Shown: positions 209 to 7,239 of the stretch, piece after piece
Position numbering within the stretch: the stretch's first letter is position 1
How the letters are laid out: every line of letters starts with the position of its first letter
From: Candidatus Micrarchaeota archaeon
Lineage (GTDB): Archaea > Iainarchaeota > Iainarchaeia > Iainarchaeales > JAGVWC01
NCBI GenBank assembly: GCA_043803815.1
Contig: JAZDJR010000020.1
Location: forward strand, 1-13,595
DNA length: 13,595 bases
Reading direction: 5' to 3'
Notes under the pieces: model-generated
Databases searched by the model: none
What the model saw: only the letters and a program-made list of their open reading frames with translations
What the model was told of the DNA's origin: nothing
Position numbers and translations under genes: made by a program

Positions 209-2284
209 ATGCGTTCCCCAAAAGGCCAGGGTTCTTTGGAGTATTTATTGATTATTGGCGGCGGAATCCTGGTTGCGGTCGTCATTATTACGACTGTTTT
301 GCAATTGGCCAACCCGTGTGCGACAAGCGGTTCCCAACTTCTAATGGCCGGCCAGACCTGCAATACCTATACTGTTTCTTCGCCGTGTACAACCGCGCAA
401 TTGAATGGTGTTGACACAACTGGAATTTGTTCGGGAGCTGGTCCAAGTGATTGTTGTTGGACGGAAGGTGCTGCAAAAGGAAAGCAATGTTCCTTGAATC
501 CGACTGCAAAAGCCGTTTGTGCAACCGGTTCTGGCGGGACAAGTTGTACGGATGGGGACTATGATGGTTATGGTTTGGCTGGTTCTACTGGCTGTTCCCA
601 TCCGGAGGTGGATTGTGATGACACCAATCCCGCTATTCATCCAGGTGCAATTGACCTGTGCAGTACTTCCCTTCTTGATGAGGACTGTTCTGGAACCCCG
701 TTTACTTGTGGTGCGGGAACAACCTGCAATGTAGTAACCAACGAGTGTGACCCCATTGTCAATTTGTGTACCTTTACGGTTTTACCTGATGCAGTTTCTG
801 TGAGCACTGGTTTCAAAACATTTGATTTTTCTTTCGCGGGCAGTACTGAAGCTCCAACCGGTATTGTTTCAGCGAGTTCTTCCTGCGGTCTGGATGCACA
901 ATCGGATGACCCCGTGCTCACTCTTCCCTCTTACGCAACGTGTGGCACCTATTCTTCCGCCGGAAAAAAAATAGTTTCGTTCGCCCTTCAATTCCCATTC
1001 GACCCGAAAGTGTGCACTGCCACGGGAACTCCCGCACAAAATTGGTTCTGCGTCAATGAAAACTGCACGCCTGGTCAAACCCGCTGCGACCCGCTTAATC
1101 CGACAACAATCGTTCAAACCTGCCAAACCAATGTGGACACTTGCATTGTTTGGAACAATACCCAAACCTGTACCGGCGGTCAGGTCTGTTCGGGCGGCGT
1201 TTGTGTCACGCCGAGTGTTTGTGGAGATGGGGCAATCACAGGAAGCGAAACCTGCGATGACGGCGGAACAATCGCGGGGGATGGCTGTAGCGCGACTTGC
1301 CTGGTTGAGGCGGGCTTTGAGTGCTTTGGAGCGCCCAGCGATTGTTACTATGTTGTTTCTTCCTGCGGTTTTTCCGATTGGGCCTTGTACGGAACAAAAT
1401 ATACCATTCCGCTCGCAGGAATAACCACTAACACGACCAACGACTGCTTTACCATTGGCCAGGCGGGCACAACTCTGAATTGCCAGGACCGCACCATTAC
1501 TTTGAACAAACCTTCCAGTGGAGGGGTCGCGGTTAGGCTTTCGGCATCCAACACGACCTTTAAAAATTGCAACTTAATCGTGAATTCAGTCTATACAGAC
1601 TCCGGCATTTATGCTTGGGGTGCGCTAAGCAATGTGCTAGTTGAAGACAACGACATTTCAAACGCAAGACCCGGAATCCTAGTTAACATGACCGGCGCTG
1701 CTGCTAATATTCAAATATCGAAAAACCGGATAATCACGGTTGGAACGACCGGGGAGGCCGGAATCATTGTGAGCACTAGCCAATCCTGCCCCACTTGCAT
1801 TATTGGCGGGGGGGCAAACGCGAACACCATTTCAGGAACCCGAAGGGGAATTGAGGTTAACATGGCTATTGGCGTTCAAGTCCTTGACAATATTGTTTCT
1901 TCCACAGGAACTCAACCGGTTTTTTTGGTTATGGATAGCGTCAGCAATGCAATAATCCGGGGAAACCAGATATCGGGCAGTTACACTTTTGGTTCTCAAA
2001 TGGGTGTTTTGGAAATCGACGGCACCAACAACACGGTACAAAACAATTTCATTACCACCAATTCGACTGGTGCCGCCGCATTTGCGTTTTATGTGGCCGG
2101 TGCGGATAACCTGTTGACGGGAAACAATGTGTGCGGGGGGACAAACAAAAAACTCAAGGTTACCGACCACCAGACCTGGAATAGCCACGGGAATACTTGC
2201 GGAAACAATTTATGTTATGATAACGGCACTCCGCTCACGGTTTGCACGGCCGCACTGGGCCAATGCGGATCCACGTGCAGTTAA
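209..2284 (+). CDS. Cys-rich surface protein with class III (type IV pilin-like) signal peptide, MopE-like putative metal-binding motif, Myxococcus-type Cys-rich repeat and C-terminal parallel beta-helix
   Basis: N-terminus KG/QGSLEYLLIIGGGILVAVVII. CTDGDYDGYG...DCDDTNPAIHPGA..C...DEDC at about 545-688. CGDGAITGSETCDDGGTIAGDGCSATC at about 1220-1324. Asn-ladder repeats (NVLVEDNDIS, NIQISKNRI, NAIIRGNQI, NNTVQNNFI) in the C-terminal half. Confidence 0.85.
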   Translation: MRSPKGQGSLEYLLIIGGGILVAVVIITTVLQLANPCATSGSQLLMAGQTCNTYTVSSPCTTAQLNGVDTTGICSGAGPSDCCWTEGAAKGKQCSLNPTAKAVCATGSGGTSCTDGDYDGYGLAGSTGCSHPEVDCDDTNPAIHPGAIDLCSTSLLDEDCSGTPFTCGAGTTCNVVTNECDPIVNLCTFTVLPDAVSVSTGFKTFDFSFAGSTEAPTGIVSASSSCGLDAQSDDPVLTLPSYATCGTYSSAGKKIVSFALQFPFDPKVCTATGTPAQNWFCVNENCTPGQTRCDPLNPTTIVQTCQTNVDTCIVWNNTQTCTGGQVCSGGVCVTPSVCGDGAITGSETCDDGGTIAGDGCSATCLVEAGFECFGAPSDCYYVVSSCGFSDWALYGTKYTIPLAGITTNTTNDCFTIGQAGTTLNCQDRTITLNKPSSGGVAVRLSASNTTFKNCNLIVNSVYTDSGIYAWGALSNVLVEDNDISNARPGILVNMTGAAANIQISKNRIITVGTTGEAGIIVSTSQSCPTCIIGGGANANTISGTRRGIEVNMAIGVQVLDNIVSSTGTQPVFLVMDSVSNAIIRGNQISGSYTFGSQMGVLEIDGTNNTVQNNFITTNSTGAAAFAFYVAGADNLLTGNNVCGGTNKKLKVTDHQTWNSHGNTCGNNLCYDNGTPLTVCTAALGQCGSTCS

Positions 2285-3570
2285 CCCCTTCCTTTCTCCC
2301 TTTTGGGAAATTGCTTTCTTACTTCACCGGCGTTAGCCGGTTTTTGAATTTGGGATTTTTTCCGTGCACGATTTTGGTATAATATTCCTGGATTTTTTTG
2401 GTGAGCGGCCCGACTTTTCCGTGCCCGATTTTGCGGTAATCCATTTTGGTAATCGGAGTCAGTTCCGTGGCGGTTCCCGTGAAAGCTTTTTTCGGTTTGC
2501 TTTTTCGCCCAAAAATCAACCACGATTTGCACGGTGTCCCTGCTGAAGGTGCGGACTTGGCGCTCAAAATCAAAGCGAACAAAAAAACCGTTTTTTTTGG
2601 CAACGTCCCGGATTATTTTTCGTATGGGTTCAAACGGATTTGCCGCTTCCGCAAACGAATAAAAATGAACGAATCCGCCGGACCTTTTGATTCCCTGCAA
2701 GGCGGCTTTCAAAAAAGAATCCGAACTTTTGGGAATCGGCATGACAACCCGGTCAAAAGTTCCCCGATACTTTTTGGGAACGATTTTATTCACATCCCCG
2801 AGAACCGGAACGATTTTTCCTTCCAATTTGTTCAGTTTGATATTAAATTTCATGTCCGAAACCGCGGCCGGATTCAGTTCGATGGCAATCGCTTTCTTCA
2901 TCCCTGAATTTTTGGCAAAAACAATGGGAAACGGCCCGCTTCCGGCAAAAAAAGCGCCGACCACTTCGTCCGGACGGATAAGTTTTGCGATTCGCAGGCG
3001 TTCCATGGACAAGCGGGGAGAAAAAAACACTTTTCCGATTGAAACCCGAAAACGGCAGCCGCTTTCGCGGTAATCCGCAGCGAGGCTTTTTTTGCCCGCC
3101 AAAATTTTTACCGGCTCGATTCGAAACCTGCCCCGATGCGCCCCGGTTTTTTTGCAGACCGTCTTAAAATTCGCGTTGGACTGCAAAACCGCGTTGGCAA
3201 TCAGTTTTTCCTTTTTTTCCAGTTCTTTTGGAACCTCGATAATCGCAATCGTTCCCAAAGAATCAAAACCCGACACGAGCTTTTCCATTTCGTCACTTGT
3301 CAAAAAATCCTTTAGGGTTTCCTTTAGCGAAGCAGGCTTGAAAAACACGGATTCAAATTCGGCTTTGACAAGTTTTGAATTCGGAAACTTTTTTTTCAGT
3401 TCTTTTTTTTCCTTTCCGGAAAGTTCGGCCGCCAAGGGAAAAATGACCGTTTCTTTTTTCCGCGTGGGCTTTTGTTTGGCATTTAACAGGCGATGAACCA
3501 AAAGCCAAGCGTGGAGTTTTTGCGCGGCCCGAGAAGAAATCCCGACTCCAAAACCCAAAACAGATGCCAT
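2281..3570 (-). CDS. trm5: Trm5/Met-10+-family tRNA methyltransferase with an aberrant C-terminal extension of about 70 aa
   Basis: Motifs FDSLGTIAII, YRESGCRF, VFFSPRLSMERLRI, FAGSGPF, IELNPAA, FDRVVMP and GGFVHFY. Start moved to the ATG at 3570 (MASVLG) because the 3705 start overlaps the divergent DUF63 gene and a TATA box lies at 3602-3607. Confidence 0.85.
   Translation of the reverse strand: MASVLGFGVGISSRAAQKLHAWLLVHRLLNAKQKPTRKKETVIFPLAAELSGKEKKELKKKFPNSKLVKAEFESVFFKPASLKETLKDFLTSDEMEKLVSGFDSLGTIAIIEVPKELEKKEKLIANAVLQSNANFKTVCKKTGAHRGRFRIEPVKILAGKKSLAADYRESGCRFRVSIGKVFFSPRLSMERLRIAKLIRPDEVVGAFFAGSGPFPIVFAKNSGMKKAIAIELNPAAVSDMKFNIKLNKLEGKIVPVLGDVNKIVPKKYRGTFDRVVMPIPKSSDSFLKAALQGIKRSGGFVHFYSFAEAANPFEPIRKIIRDVAKKNGFFVRFDFERQVRTFSRDTVQIVVDFWAKKQTEKSFHGNRHGTDSDYQNGLPQNRARKSRAAHQKNPGILYQNRARKKSQIQKPANAGEVRKQFPKREKGRG
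2319..2486 (-). pseudogene. ilvE: C-terminal relic of a branched-chain amino acid aminotransferase (class IV PLP enzyme)
   Basis: A frame different from trm5 reads AFTGTATELTPITKMDYRKIGHGKVGPLTKKIQEYYTKIVHGKNPKFKNRLTPVK*. This matches the IlvE C-terminal pattern FTGTAAEVTPI..D...IG.G..GP.T..LQ......V.G......WLTPV. The rest of the gene is absent. Confidence 0.85.
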
Positions 3571-3601
3571 AACCCTACTCCAAAAAGGTGTTTCGCAGTG
3601 A

Positions 3602-3607
3602 TTTAAA
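3602..3607. promoter_or_regulatory. Palindromic TTTAAA, candidate shared TATA box for divergent trm5 and DUF63 genes
   Basis: 31 nt from the ATG at 3570 (minus) and 27 nt from the ATG at 3635 (plus). Confidence 0.5.
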
Positions 3608-3634
3608 ACAAATTGCTCAAAAAGAATAGCTAAC

Positions 3635-4489
3635 ATGGCAGCCGATTTTGTGTTTGAATATTTTTGCAAGCCCATTTTGCAGCGCGAAGGATACAATTTA
3701 GTCAATACGGGAGTTTACGCGGCGATTTTACTGGTCATTGCGTTCGGACTGGTCATTCCCTGGCTCAAAAAAACCAAACTGCCGCTCGACCACCGCTTTT
3801 TAGCCGCCTTATTGCCGTTTATCGTACTCGGTTCGGGTTTTCGCGTTTTCGAAGATTTGGGGCTTGTCCACCGCTCCTGCAATCCCCTTTCGCCTTGGTT
3901 TTACACCATAACCCCCGGCATTTACATTGCAGTTGGAATACTGACGATTCTGGCATTATGGATTAGCCTGAAAATCAACGGCAAAAACACACCGGAAAAA
4001 AACCCAAGCCGCATATTCAAAATTTTTGGCGGAATCGGAATCGTTTTGACGCTTCCCGTTTTGTTTTTTTTAGGAACCCGAACAATCGTTTGGGACGGAA
4101 TCGCGGGAGTCTTTTTTTTAGCCGCGCTTACCACGGCGATTGCTGTTTTGGCAAGCAAAAGATTTTCCAAAACCAAAAAACTGTTCGAAATCCTGCTTAA
4201 CCGGCTTGTTTTTTTCGGGCAAATGCTTGACGCCAATGCGACGTTTGTTTCCCTGCAATTTTACAATTGCAGCGAACAGCACGTCTTGTCCGCGGGAATC
4301 ATAAGTTCTTTCGGGCCATTCGCGTTTGTCATTGTCAAATTCGCCCTGATGTATCTGGTGCTTTATTTTGCGGATAAAGAAATCGAAGACGAAAAAACGC
4401 GGCAGTTTGTCAAAATCCTGATTGGAATCATCGGCTTTGCCCCGGGAATACGCGACGCGCTTACTTTGGGCGTTGGCACGTGCTTGTAA
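3635..4489 (+). CDS. DUF63 family archaeal multi-pass membrane protein
   Basis: GYNLVNTGVYA, LLPFIVLGSGFRVFED, TPGIY, GQMLDANATF, EQHVLS and GFAPGIRD motifs, with many hydrophobic segments. Confidence 0.85.
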   Translation: MAADFVFEYFCKPILQREGYNLVNTGVYAAILLVIAFGLVIPWLKKTKLPLDHRFLAALLPFIVLGSGFRVFEDLGLVHRSCNPLSPWFYTITPGIYIAVGILTILALWISLKINGKNTPEKNPSRIFKIFGGIGIVLTLPVLFFLGTRTIVWDGIAGVFFLAALTTAIAVLASKRFSKTKKLFEILLNRLVFFGQMLDANATFVSLQFYNCSEQHVLSAGIISSFGPFAFVIVKFALMYLVLYFADKEIEDEKTRQFVKILIGIIGFAPGIRDALTLGVGTCL

Positions 4490-4497
4490 GAAAAAAG

Positions 4498-5226
4498 TCA
4501 TTTTCCAATTACAAAACCGGCATACTTTTGCATTTGGGGGTCTTTTTGGAGCATTTTAAATGTGCGCTCTAAAATCCGAAATACGGTTATTGGAACTACG
4601 CTGTATTTTTCCGCCAGTTCGTTTTGAGTATAAACGTGTCCATCCAAAAGCCCGAAGCGGTCCAACACCAGTTCCCTGCGCTGCCGTATAGACAACCGCC
4701 CCTTTATCTCCCCTGAAATAACCAAATTGCGGATAATCCGAGCCAGATTCGCTCGAATCTTCGGGTCCGATAACTCCGAAGGGCGATGAATCAATTTGCG
4801 CGTGTCCGGCACCGAGGCATACTTTTGCTCGTCGCTTTCTTCACTTGGTTGCTTTTCGGCACGTGACTGATTAAGGGAAACCGGAATTGCACTCCGTTTT
4901 AACCGCTTGCACCGAGTCACTTCATCCCCAAGCGCTTTTTGAACCACAGAATAAGCATAAGTGCCAAAACGTGTTCCACGGCTTTTGTCAAATTTCTCGC
5001 TCGCACGGTCCATGGCTATTGCACCGATTTGGCACAAGTCCTCCAAATCCACGCCATTTGCCCGCAACAAAACCAAATGCGCTTCCAAAACTTTGTTTGC
5101 CACGCTACGAATTAGCGCCGCATTTTTAAGGTACACTTGCTGCCAACGAACCGTTTTTTGGGAAACCCTACGCGTTGGGCGTTTTCCCTTTTTGGAAGGA
5201 GAATTCTTTTTCACGGTTATAGGCAT
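4498..5226 (-). CDS. Bacterial-type sigma-70 family protein (regions 2 and 4), copy 1
   Basis: Region 2: LIRSVANK...DLEDLCQIGAIAMDRASEKFDKSRGTRFGTYA. Region 4: RRELVLDRFGLLDGHVYTQNELAEKYSV. Confidence 0.88.
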   Translation of the reverse strand: MPITVKKNSPSKKGKRPTRRVSQKTVRWQQVYLKNAALIRSVANKVLEAHLVLLRANGVDLEDLCQIGAIAMDRASEKFDKSRGTRFGTYAYSVVQKALGDEVTRCKRLKRSAIPVSLNQSRAEKQPSEESDEQKYASVPDTRKLIHRPSELSDPKIRANLARIIRNLVISGEIKGRLSIRQRRELVLDRFGLLDGHVYTQNELAEKYSVVPITVFRILERTFKMLQKDPQMQKYAGFVIGK

Positions 5227-5244
5227 GCCATCAGTCGATATAAT

Positions 5245-5263
5245 TACCCAAAAGGGTATTTAA
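5245..5263 (-). promoter_or_regulatory. Archaeal TATA box (TTAAATA, 5257-5263) of sigma copy 1 with overlapping TACCC-N4-GGGTA palindrome
   Basis: Minus strand reads GCAAAAAACTATTAAATACCCTTTTGGGTA: an A-rich BRE-like stretch, then the TATA box 30 nt upstream of the ATG. Confidence 0.55.
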
Positions 5264-5321
5264 TAGTTTTTTGCAGAGAATGACAAAAAACAGGGCGATT
5301 CAAACAAAGCACCTCGTCAGC

Positions 5322-5438
5322 TTTGCGGACTCCAAGCCCAAACCAAAAAAAAACGCGGTTTCATCAAAATCGCAATCGCCAGTATCGGTTTGCCTCGCCT
5401 TCGAACCGCTTACCTTAGAGGTTGGTACCTGCCTTTAG
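5322..5438 (+). pseudogene. Decayed second copy of the DUF63 gene 3' end
   Basis: Aligns by eye with 4367-4489: tttgcggac vs tttgcggat; aaaacgcgg in both; atcaaaatc vs gtcaaaatc; IKIAIASIGL vs VKILIGIIGF; LTLEVGTCL* vs LTLGVGTCL*. Frameshifts separate the blocks. Confidence 0.8.
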
Positions 5439-6090
5439 GTTTTTTCTTCCCGTGTTCAATCAAATCATACAATTTTTGTACATCCGGACGTTCCCGCAAA
5501 AGCGAGAATACTATTTCTTGGTAGAGCCGTACGTTTTCCTTTGACATCTTAAATCGTCTGCCAACCCCTTCCAATGTTCTTGGATGACCGTCTTTCAAAC
5601 CGGTTCTCAACAAAAAAATTTCTTTTGCTCTGCCCTGAATCGAAAGGGAATCCACAATCCGGGCCAACTCGGCTCGAATATGCGGGCGAAGCCTTTCAAA
5701 TGCTATTGTATCGGGTTTATCGGCCAAGGCATCACCCCTAAAGCGCGATAAGGACGTTTCTCGCATTTCGCGTTTGCGCAGCAGGCTACTGAACTCGCGT
5801 TTTATGATGTTTACGGCAAATGTGGAAAATCGAAACCCCCTTGCCTCGTCAAATCCCACTACCGCCCTTCGCAAGGCAAGGCGGCCTTGCTGAACAACAT
5901 CGCCAAAACCATATTTGGACTGAATGGCACGCTTGTTTTTTTTCCAAAACTTATTGGCAAATGCGAAGACAAGCCCCTCGTTTTCCAGCATCTTTTTATT
6001 AACCTCTTCGATTGAAAGAACACGTTTTACCCTAATCGGTTTGGGCTTAACCGGCTTTGTTTTCGCTTGATGGCTGAACGGCGTTGGCAT
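5410..6090 (-). CDS. Bacterial-type sigma-70 family protein (regions 2 and 4), copy 2
   Basis: Region 2: NEGLVFAFANK...DVVQQGRLALRRAVVGFDEARGFRFSTFA. Region 4: KEIFLLRTGLKDGHPRTLEGVGRRFKMSKENVR. Confidence 0.88.
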   Translation of the reverse strand: MPTPFSHQAKTKPVKPKPIRVKRVLSIEEVNKKMLENEGLVFAFANKFWKKNKRAIQSKYGFGDVVQQGRLALRRAVVGFDEARGFRFSTFAVNIIKREFSSLLRKREMRETSLSRFRGDALADKPDTIAFERLRPHIRAELARIVDSLSIQGRAKEIFLLRTGLKDGHPRTLEGVGRRFKMSKENVRLYQEIVFSLLRERPDVQKLYDLIEHGKKKPKGRYQPLR

Positions 6091-6114: not shown

Positions 6115-6121
6115 TATTTAA
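6115..6121. promoter_or_regulatory. Candidate bidirectional TATA box shared by sigma copy 2 and dph5
   Basis: TATTTAA (TTAAATA on minus) lies exactly 24 nt from both ATGs (6090 and 6146) and is the same heptamer as at 5257-5263. Confidence 0.6.
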
Positions 6122-6145: not shown

Positions 6146-6919
6146 ATGCTTTACCTGATTGGAATCGGGCTCAAGCCCGACCACCTGACCAGCGAAGCGA
6201 TTGCGGCCGCCGGTGTCTGCGACGAAATATACCTGGAATACTATACCAGCCGCCTTGCGGAATCCGATTTGGCGGACCTGCAGCAAAAATTAAAATGCAA
6301 AAAAAAAATCGTTCCGTTAAGCCGCGAAGACGTCGAAGGCGGAATTTCGGACCTGGTCTTGGAATCGCGCCCGCGAAACGTGGGCATACTGGTCATCGGA
6401 AACCCGCTGATTGCGACCACGCACATCGAATTTTTGCTTGAAGCCAAAAACCAAAACGCTGCCATTCGGATTATTCCGGGAATTTCCGTTTACGACCTGG
6501 TTCCCGTCTGCGGCTTGGACGCCTACAAATTCGGCCGCGTTTCCACCGTTGTCTTTCAGGAAAAAGACTATTCTCCCGAATCGTTTTTTGATTTTATTTC
6601 AGGCAATCACGACAACGGACTGCATTCGCTTTGCTTATTGGATATCCGCGCCGAAATCGAACAACTAATGACGATTAATCAGGCCCTGGAAATCCTCGAA
6701 AAAATCGCGGAGAAAAAAAAACAAATCTGGTTTTCCAAAAGCATCATTGTCGGCCTCAGCGGATTATCGCACGCCAACCAAAAAATAATGGTCGGAACAC
6801 CAGCAGAACTGCGGGAAGAAAAATTCGAATTGTTTCCCCAATCCCTGATTGTCTGCGGAAAACTCAACGGCAAGGAAAAAGAAGCCTTGCAAAAACTGCA
6901 CGGGTGGAAAGAAGAATGA
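6146..6919 (+). CDS. dph5: Diphthine synthase
   Basis: MLYLIGIGL, IYLEYYTS, REDVE, LVIGNPLIATTH, GLDAYKFGRVSTV, GLHSLCLLDI and PQSLIVCG motifs. Confidence 0.96.
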   Translation: MLYLIGIGLKPDHLTSEAIAAAGVCDEIYLEYYTSRLAESDLADLQQKLKCKKKIVPLSREDVEGGISDLVLESRPRNVGILVIGNPLIATTHIEFLLEAKNQNAAIRIIPGISVYDLVPVCGLDAYKFGRVSTVVFQEKDYSPESFFDFISGNHDNGLHSLCLLDIRAEIEQLMTINQALEILEKIAEKKKQIWFSKSIIVGLSGLSHANQKIMVGTPAELREEKFELFPQSLIVCGKLNGKEKEALQKLHGWKEE

Positions 6920-7239
6920 AAAACAAACCCGATTCCCGTTCCAATCCGACCGATTCCAATAACCTGGAAAAAAAAACCGAACACTACGAAAAAATCACCG
7001 CCAAAGCGCTTGGAATAGTAACTGTTTTTCCCAACCTATCCGCGGAAAAAAAAGCCCAAGCCAATGATTTTTTGGATTTGGCCAAACGCTATTTTGACGA
7101 TGCCCGCTATTTCCGCCAAAAAGGAGACTTGGCAACCGCATTGGCCGCGTTTTCGTATGCCCACGCCTGGCTGGACGCCGGAGTCCGAGGCAAAATACTG
7201 GACGGAAAACAAAACGACAAACTATTCGTACTGCCGTGA
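6916..7239 (+). CDS. DUF357 domain protein
   Basis: FLDLAKRYFDDARYF..KGD...ALAAFSYAHAWLDAG motif. ATGA overlap with the dph5 stop places the start at 6916. DUF357 is a common dph5 neighbour in archaea. Confidence 0.9.
   Translation: MKNKPDSRSNPTDSNNLEKKTEHYEKITAKALGIVTVFPNLSAEKKAQANDFLDLAKRYFDDARYFRQKGDLATALAAFSYAHAWLDAGVRGKILDGKQNDKLFVLP

What the first reader, a model, noticed from the sequence alone, without database searches (positions are those of the whole stretch)
5310..5438. Displaced DUF63 3' end between the sigma genes: footprint of cassette acquisition
Seen: the spacer holds a frameshifted copy of the last ~40 codons of DUF63, so the locus reads [DUF63 end><sigma1][DUF63' end><sigma2]. 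The last codons differ almost only synonymously (ctt acc tta gag gtt ggt acc tgc ctt tag vs ctt act ttg ggc gtt ggc acg tgc ttg taa). Sigma2 reads past the position of the sigma1 stop into the relic. Inference: the two DUF63 ends diverged while both were coding, which fits uptake of a cassette from a relative by recombination inside DUF63, displacing the old 3' end, better than a simple duplication. Such stacking resembles the growth of polymorphic effector arrays.
Basis: partly seen in the sequence, partly recalled or inferred. Interest (0 to 1): 0.75.

Follow-up and report, generated by a model that had tools for sequence, protein, structure and literature searches.

The report
Decayed gene end marks sigma-gene gain
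A 129-base broken leftover of a membrane-protein gene's tail lies between two bacterial-type sigma-factor-like genes of a small archaeon and shows that a second gene block was joined on there, a well-preserved but ordinary footprint of gene gain.

Summary
Window 5310-5438 (+) is a frameshifted copy of DUF63 residues 240-284 plus the stop codon. A frameshift-tolerant scan of the whole 1.08-Mb genome scores the real gene 275, this relic 88 and nothing else above 50.

Over 34 matched codons the two ends differ at 8, 6 and 25 first, second and third positions. Third positions are saturated. The pattern equals that between the resident gene and a functional ortholog from another genus (9/7/25). So the relic was coding for nearly all of its divergence, and a partial duplication that never coded is rejected (P=0.002).

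The two sigma-like genes are only 29% identical. TYW2-DUF63-dph5 synteny is conserved across the order. The DUF63-dph5 gap holds varied inserts, but a sigma gene only here and probably in one family member.

Best reading (about 0.5): a [DUF63 3' end + sigma] block from a diverged relative was joined next to the resident block. Main rival (about 0.27): an old duplication of the whole block, followed by deletion of the 5' part of the second DUF63.

No mosaic inside the resident DUF63 was found. DNA of the closest relatives could not be reached. This is a new example of a known kind of footprint, of modest interest.

The parts
3635..4489 (+). Resident, intact DUF63 membrane-protein gene (284 aa).
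   Evidence: PF01889 E 5.2e-60. It is the only DUF63 match in the genome.
4352..4489 (+). Resident 3' end (codons 240-284 plus stop), the counterpart of the relic.
   Evidence: Frameshift-tolerant alignment. Codon table.
4498..5226 (-). sigma1: sigma-70-family-like gene (242 aa), convergent with DUF63. Its stop lies 8 nt beyond the DUF63 stop.
   Evidence: Sigma70_r2 E 1.2e-11. TIGR02937 52.9 bits against a cut-off of 42.9. One close homolog, P0002, at 79%.
5227..5309 (-). Upstream region of sigma1. It carries an A/T-rich box (TTAAATA on the minus strand, plus-strand 5257-5263) about 30 nt before the ATG. The junction to the relic is at about 5309/5310.
   Evidence: Read directly from the sequence. 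The promoter role is inferred. No significant similarity to the sigma2-dph5 spacer or to DUF63 sequence 5' of codon 240.
5310..5438 (+). Relic: decayed 3' end of a second DUF63 gene (residues 240-284 plus stop), with two frameshifts and four codon deletions.
5410..6090 (-). sigma2: sigma-70-family-like gene (226 aa from the ATG at 6090; the database calls a 193-aa form starting at 5991). Its last 9 codons (5413-5438) are read antisense to the relic.
   Evidence: Sigma70_r2 E 1.3e-8. TIGR02937 45.4 bits. P0004 81%. Tail compared.
6146..6919 (+). dph5 (diphthine synthase), the conserved right-hand neighbour of DUF63 across the order.
   Evidence: TIGR00522 179 bits. Synteny.

Best explanation
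5310-5438 is the dead 3' end of a second DUF63 gene (called DUF63_b here). That gene evolved as a working gene, separately from the resident DUF63, until fairly recently.

The locus once held a single block: DUF63 followed by a convergent sigma-like gene, then dph5. A homologous block from a relative diverged at about genus-to-family level was then joined in tandem to the resident block. The donor block carried its own DUF63 end and its own, very different, fast-evolving sigma-like gene. One junction was illegitimate, between the upstream region of sigma1 and codon 240 of DUF63_b. The other end probably lay in homologous DNA.

The result is one intact DUF63, two sigma-like genes and the orphaned DUF63_b tail. 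After DUF63_b died, sigma2 lost its original stop and now reads 9-12 codons into the antisense of the relic.

Shown: the relic is real; it has a coding history; it is not a copy of the resident end; the interval is variable among relatives.

Inferred: a donor from another lineage, the type of recombination, and which of the two blocks was the newcomer. The likeness of sigma2 to the sigma next to dph5 in G003 hints that sigma1 plus the present DUF63 end came in.
For: - The relic is unique and far above noise: 88 against a maximum of 50 over the genome.
- Differences by codon position are 8/6/25 over 34 codons; 15 of 23 codons with the same residue use another codon. In ungapped blocks only, 19 of 28 differences are at third positions, P=2e-4 (counted from the rows).
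- The pattern equals that between the resident gene and the functional G002 ortholog, 9/7/25.
- A relic neutral since its birth is rejected, P=0.0024.
- In the C-terminal tree, WIN+P0030+P0036 group at UFBoot 99 and the 13 closest DUF63 proteins at 86, both without the relic. The relic keeps I259 and A264 where the window and P0030 have V and G.
- sigma1 and sigma2 are 29% identical. They are not sisters in a star-like tree, with a path of 3.9 changes per site. sigma2 is nearer to the sigma beside dph5 in G003 than to sigma1 (82.8 against 65.5 bits).
- These values match the calibration for family-level orthologs: DUF63 C-terminus about 68% (P0042) and sigma about 30%.
- No tandem pair of DUF63 genes was seen among 178 of 196 genomes with DUF63 (41 matches unlisted).
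- G002, of the same family, has DUF63 and dph5 34 nt apart. An old whole-block duplication would therefore need long retention here plus losses elsewhere.
- The interval is an insertion-prone spot: 14 of 25 loci carry 252-2182 nt of varied cargo.
Against: - No donor lineage is known.
- Apart from its 79% ortholog, sigma1 has no relative better than about 62 bits among 1.84 billion representatives. Sigma2 is among its nearest kin, which also fits an old local duplication.
- GC content is flat at 0.44-0.48 across the locus.
- No mosaic is seen inside the resident DUF63.
- Both sigma genes are equally far (0.26) from their orthologs P0002 and P0004. The tail of P0004 implies that the relic-type DNA is also under sigma2 in that relative. 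So the event is not recent, and both genes may have been inherited together.
- The relic tree rests on 45 columns, and decay may pull the relic towards the base.
- Codon counts rest on an alignment guided by the protein sequence.
Confidence: 0.5

Rival explanations
1. Old tandem duplication of the whole [DUF63 + sigma] block within this lineage. Both DUF63 copies stayed functional for a long time. A deletion then removed the first 239 codons of the downstream copy.
For: - It explains the identical geometry of the two units and the coding-type divergence.
- Outside its ortholog, sigma1's nearest known kin include sigma2.
- GC content is uniform.
- Both sigma genes are equally distant from the relative's orthologs.
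- The 5' and 3' trees of the resident DUF63 are congruent.
Against: - It needs a duplication, retention of two DUF63 paralogs long enough to saturate synonymous sites in a genome of about 1 Mb, and then a deletion.
- It also needs complete loss in relatives: G002 has a 34-nt DUF63-dph5 gap.
- No tandem DUF63 pair was seen in the places listed for 178 DUF63-bearing genomes (41 matches unlisted).
- sigma2 is nearer to the G003 sigma than to sigma1, so the duplication would predate the family.
Confidence: 0.27
2. Site-specific integration of a small mobile element into the 3' end of DUF63. The element brought a substitute 3' end plus sigma1 and has since lost its integrase.
For: - A direct repeat of a gene's 3' end flanking cargo is the classic shape of such an integration (recalled knowledge).
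- Sigma-like genes sit at many different places among housekeeping genes in relatives.
- The DUF63-dph5 gap holds varied cargo, including HicAB.
Against: - No integrase or transposase family was found in any of the 18 longer window frames submitted to Pfam, nor next to sigma genes in 12 related loci.
- The putative element is only about 960 nt.
- The repeats are about 62% identical and saturated at third positions.
- No other genome shows a DUF63 relic.
Confidence: 0.08
3. Simple partial tandem duplication (codon 240 to the sigma upstream region), in which the relic never coded and has drifted since.
For: It is the simplest way to get the geometry with one event.
Against: - Third positions are saturated while first and second positions differ at only 14 of 68 sites. 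The expected value is at least 0.37 per site if the relic had been neutral for half the path, P=0.0024.
- The sigma copies are only 29% identical.
- The relic is excluded from the resident gene's group.
Confidence: 0.03
4. Chance similarity, or an assembly chimera of two strains.
For: - The nucleotide-level score alone is matched by two A-rich segments elsewhere in the window.
- The genome is a 36-contig draft.
Against: - The genome-wide protein-level scan gives 88 against a maximum of 50.
- The copies share no long exact words that could mislead an assembler.
- The relic carries frameshifts and lacks conserved residues, so it is not a piece of an intact gene from another strain.
- The relative's sigma2 carries the same antisense-encoded tail.
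Confidence: 0.02

Closest known systems
C-terminal displacement in rhs loci (Jackson et al. 2009, PMC2935791; abstract read)
   Same: A conserved gene keeps a working 3' end. An older, homologous 3' end lies orphaned downstream, behind newly acquired DNA. The model proposes recombination with an incoming piece that carries a fragment of the conserved gene.
   Different: - Here the displaced piece is the conserved part, not a variable toxin tip.
- The variable cargo is a separate, convergent sigma-like gene.
- There is no toxin or immunity pair.
- There is one relic, not an array.
- The host is an archaeon.
Homology-facilitated illegitimate recombination during uptake of foreign DNA (recalled from the bacterial transformation literature; no paper read here)
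   Same: One end of the incoming DNA is anchored in homologous sequence and the other is joined illegitimately. This gives an insertion plus a truncated resident gene in one step.
   Different: It has not been shown in these archaea, and no anchor or donor was identified here.
Integrative elements that replace the 3' end of their target gene, such as tRNA-gene integration (recalled)
   Same: A direct repeat of a gene's 3' end brackets the inserted DNA, and the upstream copy is the functional one.
   Different: There is no integrase, the insert is very small, the repeats are only about 62% identical, and the target codes for a protein.
Sigma-70-like genes in DPANN archaea (Castelle et al. 2021, PMC8204110; one passage read)
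   Same: Both inserted genes are sigma-70-family proteins in an archaeal genome. That paper reports such genes in DPANN, mostly Woesearchaeota, without anti-sigma factors.
   Different: In the passage read, that paper does not treat how the genes were gained. Here a footprint of the gain is preserved.

Membership tests
DUF63 (PF01889) gene, for the relic | Recognisable DUF63 sequence with the conserved C-terminal motif | tested here: met
   Residues 240-284 align, including the terminal GTCL and the stop. The relic matches the 13 closest DUF63 proteins at 21-24 of 33 positions and 18 more distant ones at no more than 19 of 33.
DUF63 (PF01889) gene, for the relic | Intact reading frame of full length | tested here: not met
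   Only the last 45 codons are present, with two frameshifts and four codon deletions. Residues invariant among the 31 rows compared (I265, G271) or nearly so (F268) are changed. The 55-aa frame has no Pfam match. It is a pseudogene fragment.
Rhs/CDI-type displacement array | Orphaned 3' fragment homologous to the 3' part of the upstream full-length gene | tested here: met
Rhs/CDI-type displacement array | Variable toxic tip with a cognate immunity gene, and several stacked orphans | tested here: not met
   The DUF63 end is the conserved part (one search lists the C-termini). The cargo is a sigma-like gene. Only one relic exists in the genome.
Partial tandem duplication with a never-coding copy | Differences spread evenly over codon positions | tested here: not met
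   Differences are 8/6/25, P=8e-5. The one-sided model gives P=0.0024.
Integrase-mediated insertion | Integrase or recombinase gene in or beside the insert; near-identical att repeats | tested here: not met
   No such Pfam family in any of the 18 longer window frames submitted; shorter frames were not scanned. The repeats are about 62% identical.
Sigma-70 family (sigma1, sigma2) | Region 2 and region 4 domains | tested here: met
   Both pass the TIGR02937 cut-off (52.9 and 45.4 bits against 42.9) and the Sigma70_r2 gathering score. Region 4 in sigma2 is below cut-off (17.7 against 24.1) and is not called in sigma1 by Pfam.
Sigma-70 family (sigma1, sigma2) | Acts as an initiation factor with RNA polymerase | not testable with these tools
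   The host is an archaeon. Binding to its polymerase is unknown (the question is raised in PMC8204110).

The most novel reading that the evidence does not exclude
The 3' end of DUF63 serves as a recurrent landing pad at which related DPANN archaea exchange and stack fast-evolving sigma-like genes by recombination. This would be an archaeal, regulator-carrying counterpart of the displacement arrays of polymorphic toxin loci.

Three hints point that way:
- The relative has sigma1 and sigma2 at 79-81% identity but an adjacent DUF63 at only 69%.
- The closest DUF63 relative (80%) has no detectable sigma1 or sigma2 homolog in the protein collection.
- The DUF63-dph5 interval carries varied cargo across the order.
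Probability: 0.15. Interest if true: 0.6.

Novelty: new member of a known kind. Interest (0 to 1): 0.35.

Why it matters
Bacterial-type sigma-like genes are scattered patchily through DPANN archaea: 55 of 196 genomes of this order have a match. How they spread is not known.

This locus preserves a dated scar of one such gain. It shows that a whole block, the tail of a neighbouring gene plus a sigma-like gene, was added next to an existing one at a conserved housekeeping junction.

It also gives a small, clean example of a coding region (the tail of sigma2) growing out of the antisense strand of a dead gene.

It does not reveal a new kind of system.

Tried and rejected
- Nucleotide alignment alone: suggestive, but matched by two A-rich segments. 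It was replaced by a frameshift-tolerant protein-to-DNA scan.
- Search for the DNA of close relatives:
  - The metagenome scan with DUF63 gave only two loci, at 45%.
  - Two scans of genome contigs, with P0002 and P0031, found nothing.
  - No sigma1 homolog above 33% in the 196 genomes of the order.
  - For sequencing runs, none was listed.
- An inverted match between 5291-5307 and DUF63 just 5' of codon 240 (pair I21): 6.3% of 3000 random genome windows score as high, so it is chance.
- Homology between the sigma1 upstream region and the sigma2-dph5 spacer: none beyond A/T-rich words.
- GC composition as a sign of foreign origin: flat.
- Terminator-like hairpin at 5414-5439: 4 sites found against 3.2 expected in the region, so it carries no weight.
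- Mosaic structure of the resident DUF63: none.
- Relics downstream of DUF63 in related loci: none. The best single hit has E 0.011 and there are no colinear pairs (42 other locus entries, several being longer versions of the same locus).
- Earlier notes of this scan: nothing found.

Full report
WHAT IS THERE

The window is contig C20 of a 1.08-Mb, 36-contig draft genome, 86% complete.

It is archaeal. It carries dph5 (TIGR00522, 179 bits), a TYW2/Trm5 methyltransferase, a protein with a class III signal peptide, and DUF63, a family found only in the three archaeal control genomes. Sources name close DUF63 homologs as Micrarchaeota or Diapherotrites, so I take it to be a DPANN-type archaeon; this is an inference.

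The genes around the finding are:
- TYW2, 2281-3705 (-)
- DUF63, 3635-4489 (+)
- sigma1, 4498-5226 (-)
- sigma2, 5410-6090 (-)
- dph5, 6146-6919 (+)

Both sigma-like proteins pass the Sigma70_r2 gathering score and the TIGR02937 cut-off. They are the only two clear Sigma70_r2 matches in the genome. There is one weak third match, on C8, with E 0.005.

CHECK OF THE OBSERVATION

The three reading frames of the spacer show pieces of the DUF63 C-terminus. A protein-to-DNA alignment that allows frameshifts places DUF63 residues 240-284 and the stop on 5310-5438. It has two frameshifts and four missing codons.

Run over the whole genome on both strands, the same aligner gives 275 for the real gene, 88 for this place and at most 50 anywhere else.

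The plain nucleotide score is less decisive. It is 32, against shuffles with mean 16.1 and maximum 24, but two A-rich segments of the window reach 34.

Among 42 other locus entries from relatives, none has a comparable second copy downstream of its own DUF63.

HOW THE TWO ENDS DIFFER

Over the 34 codons that can be matched, there are 8, 6 and 25 differences at positions 1, 2 and 3. Fifteen of the 23 codons that encode the same residue are spelled differently.

- Against an even spread, P=8e-5.
- Against 0.44, my rough estimate of the third-position share if only the functional copy were constrained, P=0.009.
- Using only the ungapped blocks, 19 of 28 differences are at third positions, P=2e-4 (counted from the rows).
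- Third positions mismatch at 0.735. The random expectation from the gene's composition is 0.743, so they are saturated.
- The resident gene compared with the functional ortholog of G002, another genus of the family, gives 9/7/25 over the same codons.
- If the relic had drifted freely for half of even the lowest plausible third-position distance, at least 0.37 of first and second positions should differ. Observed are 14 of 68, P=0.0024.

Hence the relic belonged to a working DUF63 for nearly all of its separation from the resident gene. A partial duplication that never coded is rejected.

Relic-specific changes at residues otherwise conserved, such as I265, F268 and G271, together with the indels, indicate a modest period of decay since. 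I estimate this at roughly 0.1 change per site.

WHERE THE RELIC COMES FROM

The relic matches the 13 closest DUF63 proteins, the resident one included, at 21-24 of 33 positions. It matches 18 more distant ones at 8-19 of 33.

It keeps I259 and A264, where the resident gene and its nearest relative P0030 have V and G.

In a tree of the last 45 columns, the resident end groups with P0030 and P0036 (UFBoot 99) and the 13 close proteins group at 86, both without the relic. The alignment is short and the relic branch is long, so this placement is tentative.

The resident DUF63 is closest to P0030 in all five segments. It groups with P0030 and P0036 in both the 5'-part and the 3'-part trees. No breakpoint inside the resident gene can be seen.

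THE SIGMA-LIKE GENES

- sigma1 and sigma2 are 29% identical.
- In a tree with related archaeal and bacterial proteins they are not sisters. The archaeal part is a star, with a path of 3.9 changes per site between them.
- sigma2's best distant match is the sigma-like gene that sits directly before dph5 at the start of a contig in G003, same family: 82.8 bits, against 65.5 to sigma1.
- sigma1 has only one close homolog in 5.8 billion clustered proteins, P0002 at 79%.
- Among 1.84 billion representatives nothing else exceeds 62 bits. The short hits there (P0067, P0086, P0091) share the basic N-terminal tail and the C-terminal end of the window proteins.
- I read these as a fast-evolving, mostly archaeal subfamily. 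Sigma-70-like genes in DPANN have been reported (PMC8204110, passage read).
- sigma2 runs about 12 residues, and its 81% homolog P0004 about 22, past the usual end of the family. In the window this tail is encoded antisense to the relic.
- P0004 shares 10 of the first 12 tail residues, so the relative must carry the same DUF63-type DNA under its sigma2.
- At one tail position P0004 has D where the window has Q. D cannot be encoded opposite a Val-Gly pair in that register (my reasoning from the genetic code). The relative's copy therefore seems decayed too, and the event seems older than their split.

THE NEIGHBOURHOOD IN RELATIVES

- Of 30 loci (29 genomes of the order and one metagenome contig), 25 have dph5 downstream of DUF63 on the same strand.
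- Eleven of these gaps are 100 nt or less. They include the same-family genome G002, at 34 nt.
- Fourteen gaps are 252-2182 nt.
- The inserts carry HicA/HicB, SdpI-like plus matrixin, TauE plus EamA, a ClpP-like protease, or small unknown proteins.
- None of the inserts holds a sigma gene.
- In the order, 55 of 196 genomes have a Sigma70_r2 match and 178 of 196 have DUF63.
- Comparing the two tables by eye, the nearest pairing outside this genome is 7.3 kb apart, in G017. Forty-one DUF63 matches were not listed.
- Sigma-like genes in 12 related loci lie among housekeeping genes, with no integrase nearby.

A POSSIBLE INCONGRUENCE

P0002 (sigma1-like, 79%) and P0059 (DUF63, 69% to the resident gene) are both recorded on a contig of 5,307 nt, probably the same one.

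P0030 (DUF63, 80%) lies on a 37.6-kb contig. Yet no sigma1 or sigma2 homolog other than P0002 and P0004 exists in the collection.

Sigma-like genes that are better conserved than the neighbouring membrane protein, together with a nearer DUF63 relative that seems to lack them, hint at exchange at this locus. Without DNA this cannot be tested.

EXPLANATIONS

Best, about 0.5: a homologous [DUF63 end + sigma] block from a relative at about genus-to-family distance was joined next to the resident block.
- The join used one illegitimate junction, at codon 240.
- This fits the calibration: DUF63 C-terminus about 68% and sigma about 30% at that distance.
- It needs one event, and it fits an insertion-prone interval.

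Main rival, about 0.27: an old tandem duplication of the whole block, long coexistence of two working DUF63 genes, then a 5' deletion.
- It fits the codon data equally well.
- It also fits the lack of any foreign signal: flat GC, and sigma2 among sigma1's nearest kin.
- But it needs more events, losses in relatives, and a tandem DUF63 state that I saw nowhere.

Less likely:
- An integrase-type insertion (0.08). No integrase is present and the repeats are about 62% identical.
- A never-coding partial duplication (0.03).
- Chance or assembly error (0.02).

COMPARISON WITH WHAT IS KNOWN

The geometry is that of C-terminal displacement in rhs loci (PMC2935791, abstract read). It is not a member of that kind: the displaced piece is the conserved part, there is no toxin or immunity pair, and there is a single relic.

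VERDICT

This is a new example of a known kind of recombination scar, found in an unusual setting. Interest is modest.

Noticed in passing
window 5991-6090: The protein collection holds sigma2 and its 81% homolog as forms starting at MLENEG (193 and 203 aa). The longer frame from the ATG at 6090 adds a basic, Lys/Pro-rich N-terminal tail. This tail aligns with the N-termini of sigma1 and of related archaeal sigma-like proteins, so the longer start is probably the real one.
   Followed up: partly
L020 (G056) 1059-1498; L057/L064 (G041, G015); L058 (G050); L056 (G001) 1386-2243: The DUF63-dph5 gap of relatives carries unrelated cargo: a HicA/HicB pair, SdpI-like plus matrixin peptidase, TauE plus EamA transporters, and a ClpP-like protease. 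It looks like an insertion-prone junction across the order.
   Followed up: partly
proteins P0002, P0059, P0004, P0030 (no DNA): A relative has sigma1 and sigma2 at 79-81% identity, but the DUF63 recorded on a contig of the same length as the sigma1 homolog is only 69% identical. The closest DUF63 (80%, on a 37.6-kb contig) has no detectable sigma1 or sigma2 partner in the collection.
   Followed up: partly
L048/L053 (G002 contig C7, about 2.7-4.6 kb): A same-family genome has two sigma-like genes on the same strand with a nitroreductase gene between them, far (more than 110 kb) from its DUF63.
   Followed up: no
window 209-2284: A 691-aa protein with an archaeal class III (pilin-type) signal peptide and the cysteine-rich MopE and DUF4215 motifs.
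   Followed up: no
window 5257-5263 and 6115-6121: Both sigma-like genes have an A/T-rich TTAAATA box on their coding strand about 25-30 nt before the ATG. This spacing is expected of an archaeal TATA box with a short or absent leader (read; the role is inferred).
   Followed up: no
G000 contig C8 714-920: A weak third Sigma70_r2 match in the same genome (E 0.005, below cut-off).
   Followed up: no
window 6904-7239 and L044 1419-1760: A DUF357 gene follows dph5 both here and in G003, which extends the conserved TYW2-DUF63-dph5 synteny by one gene.
   Followed up: no
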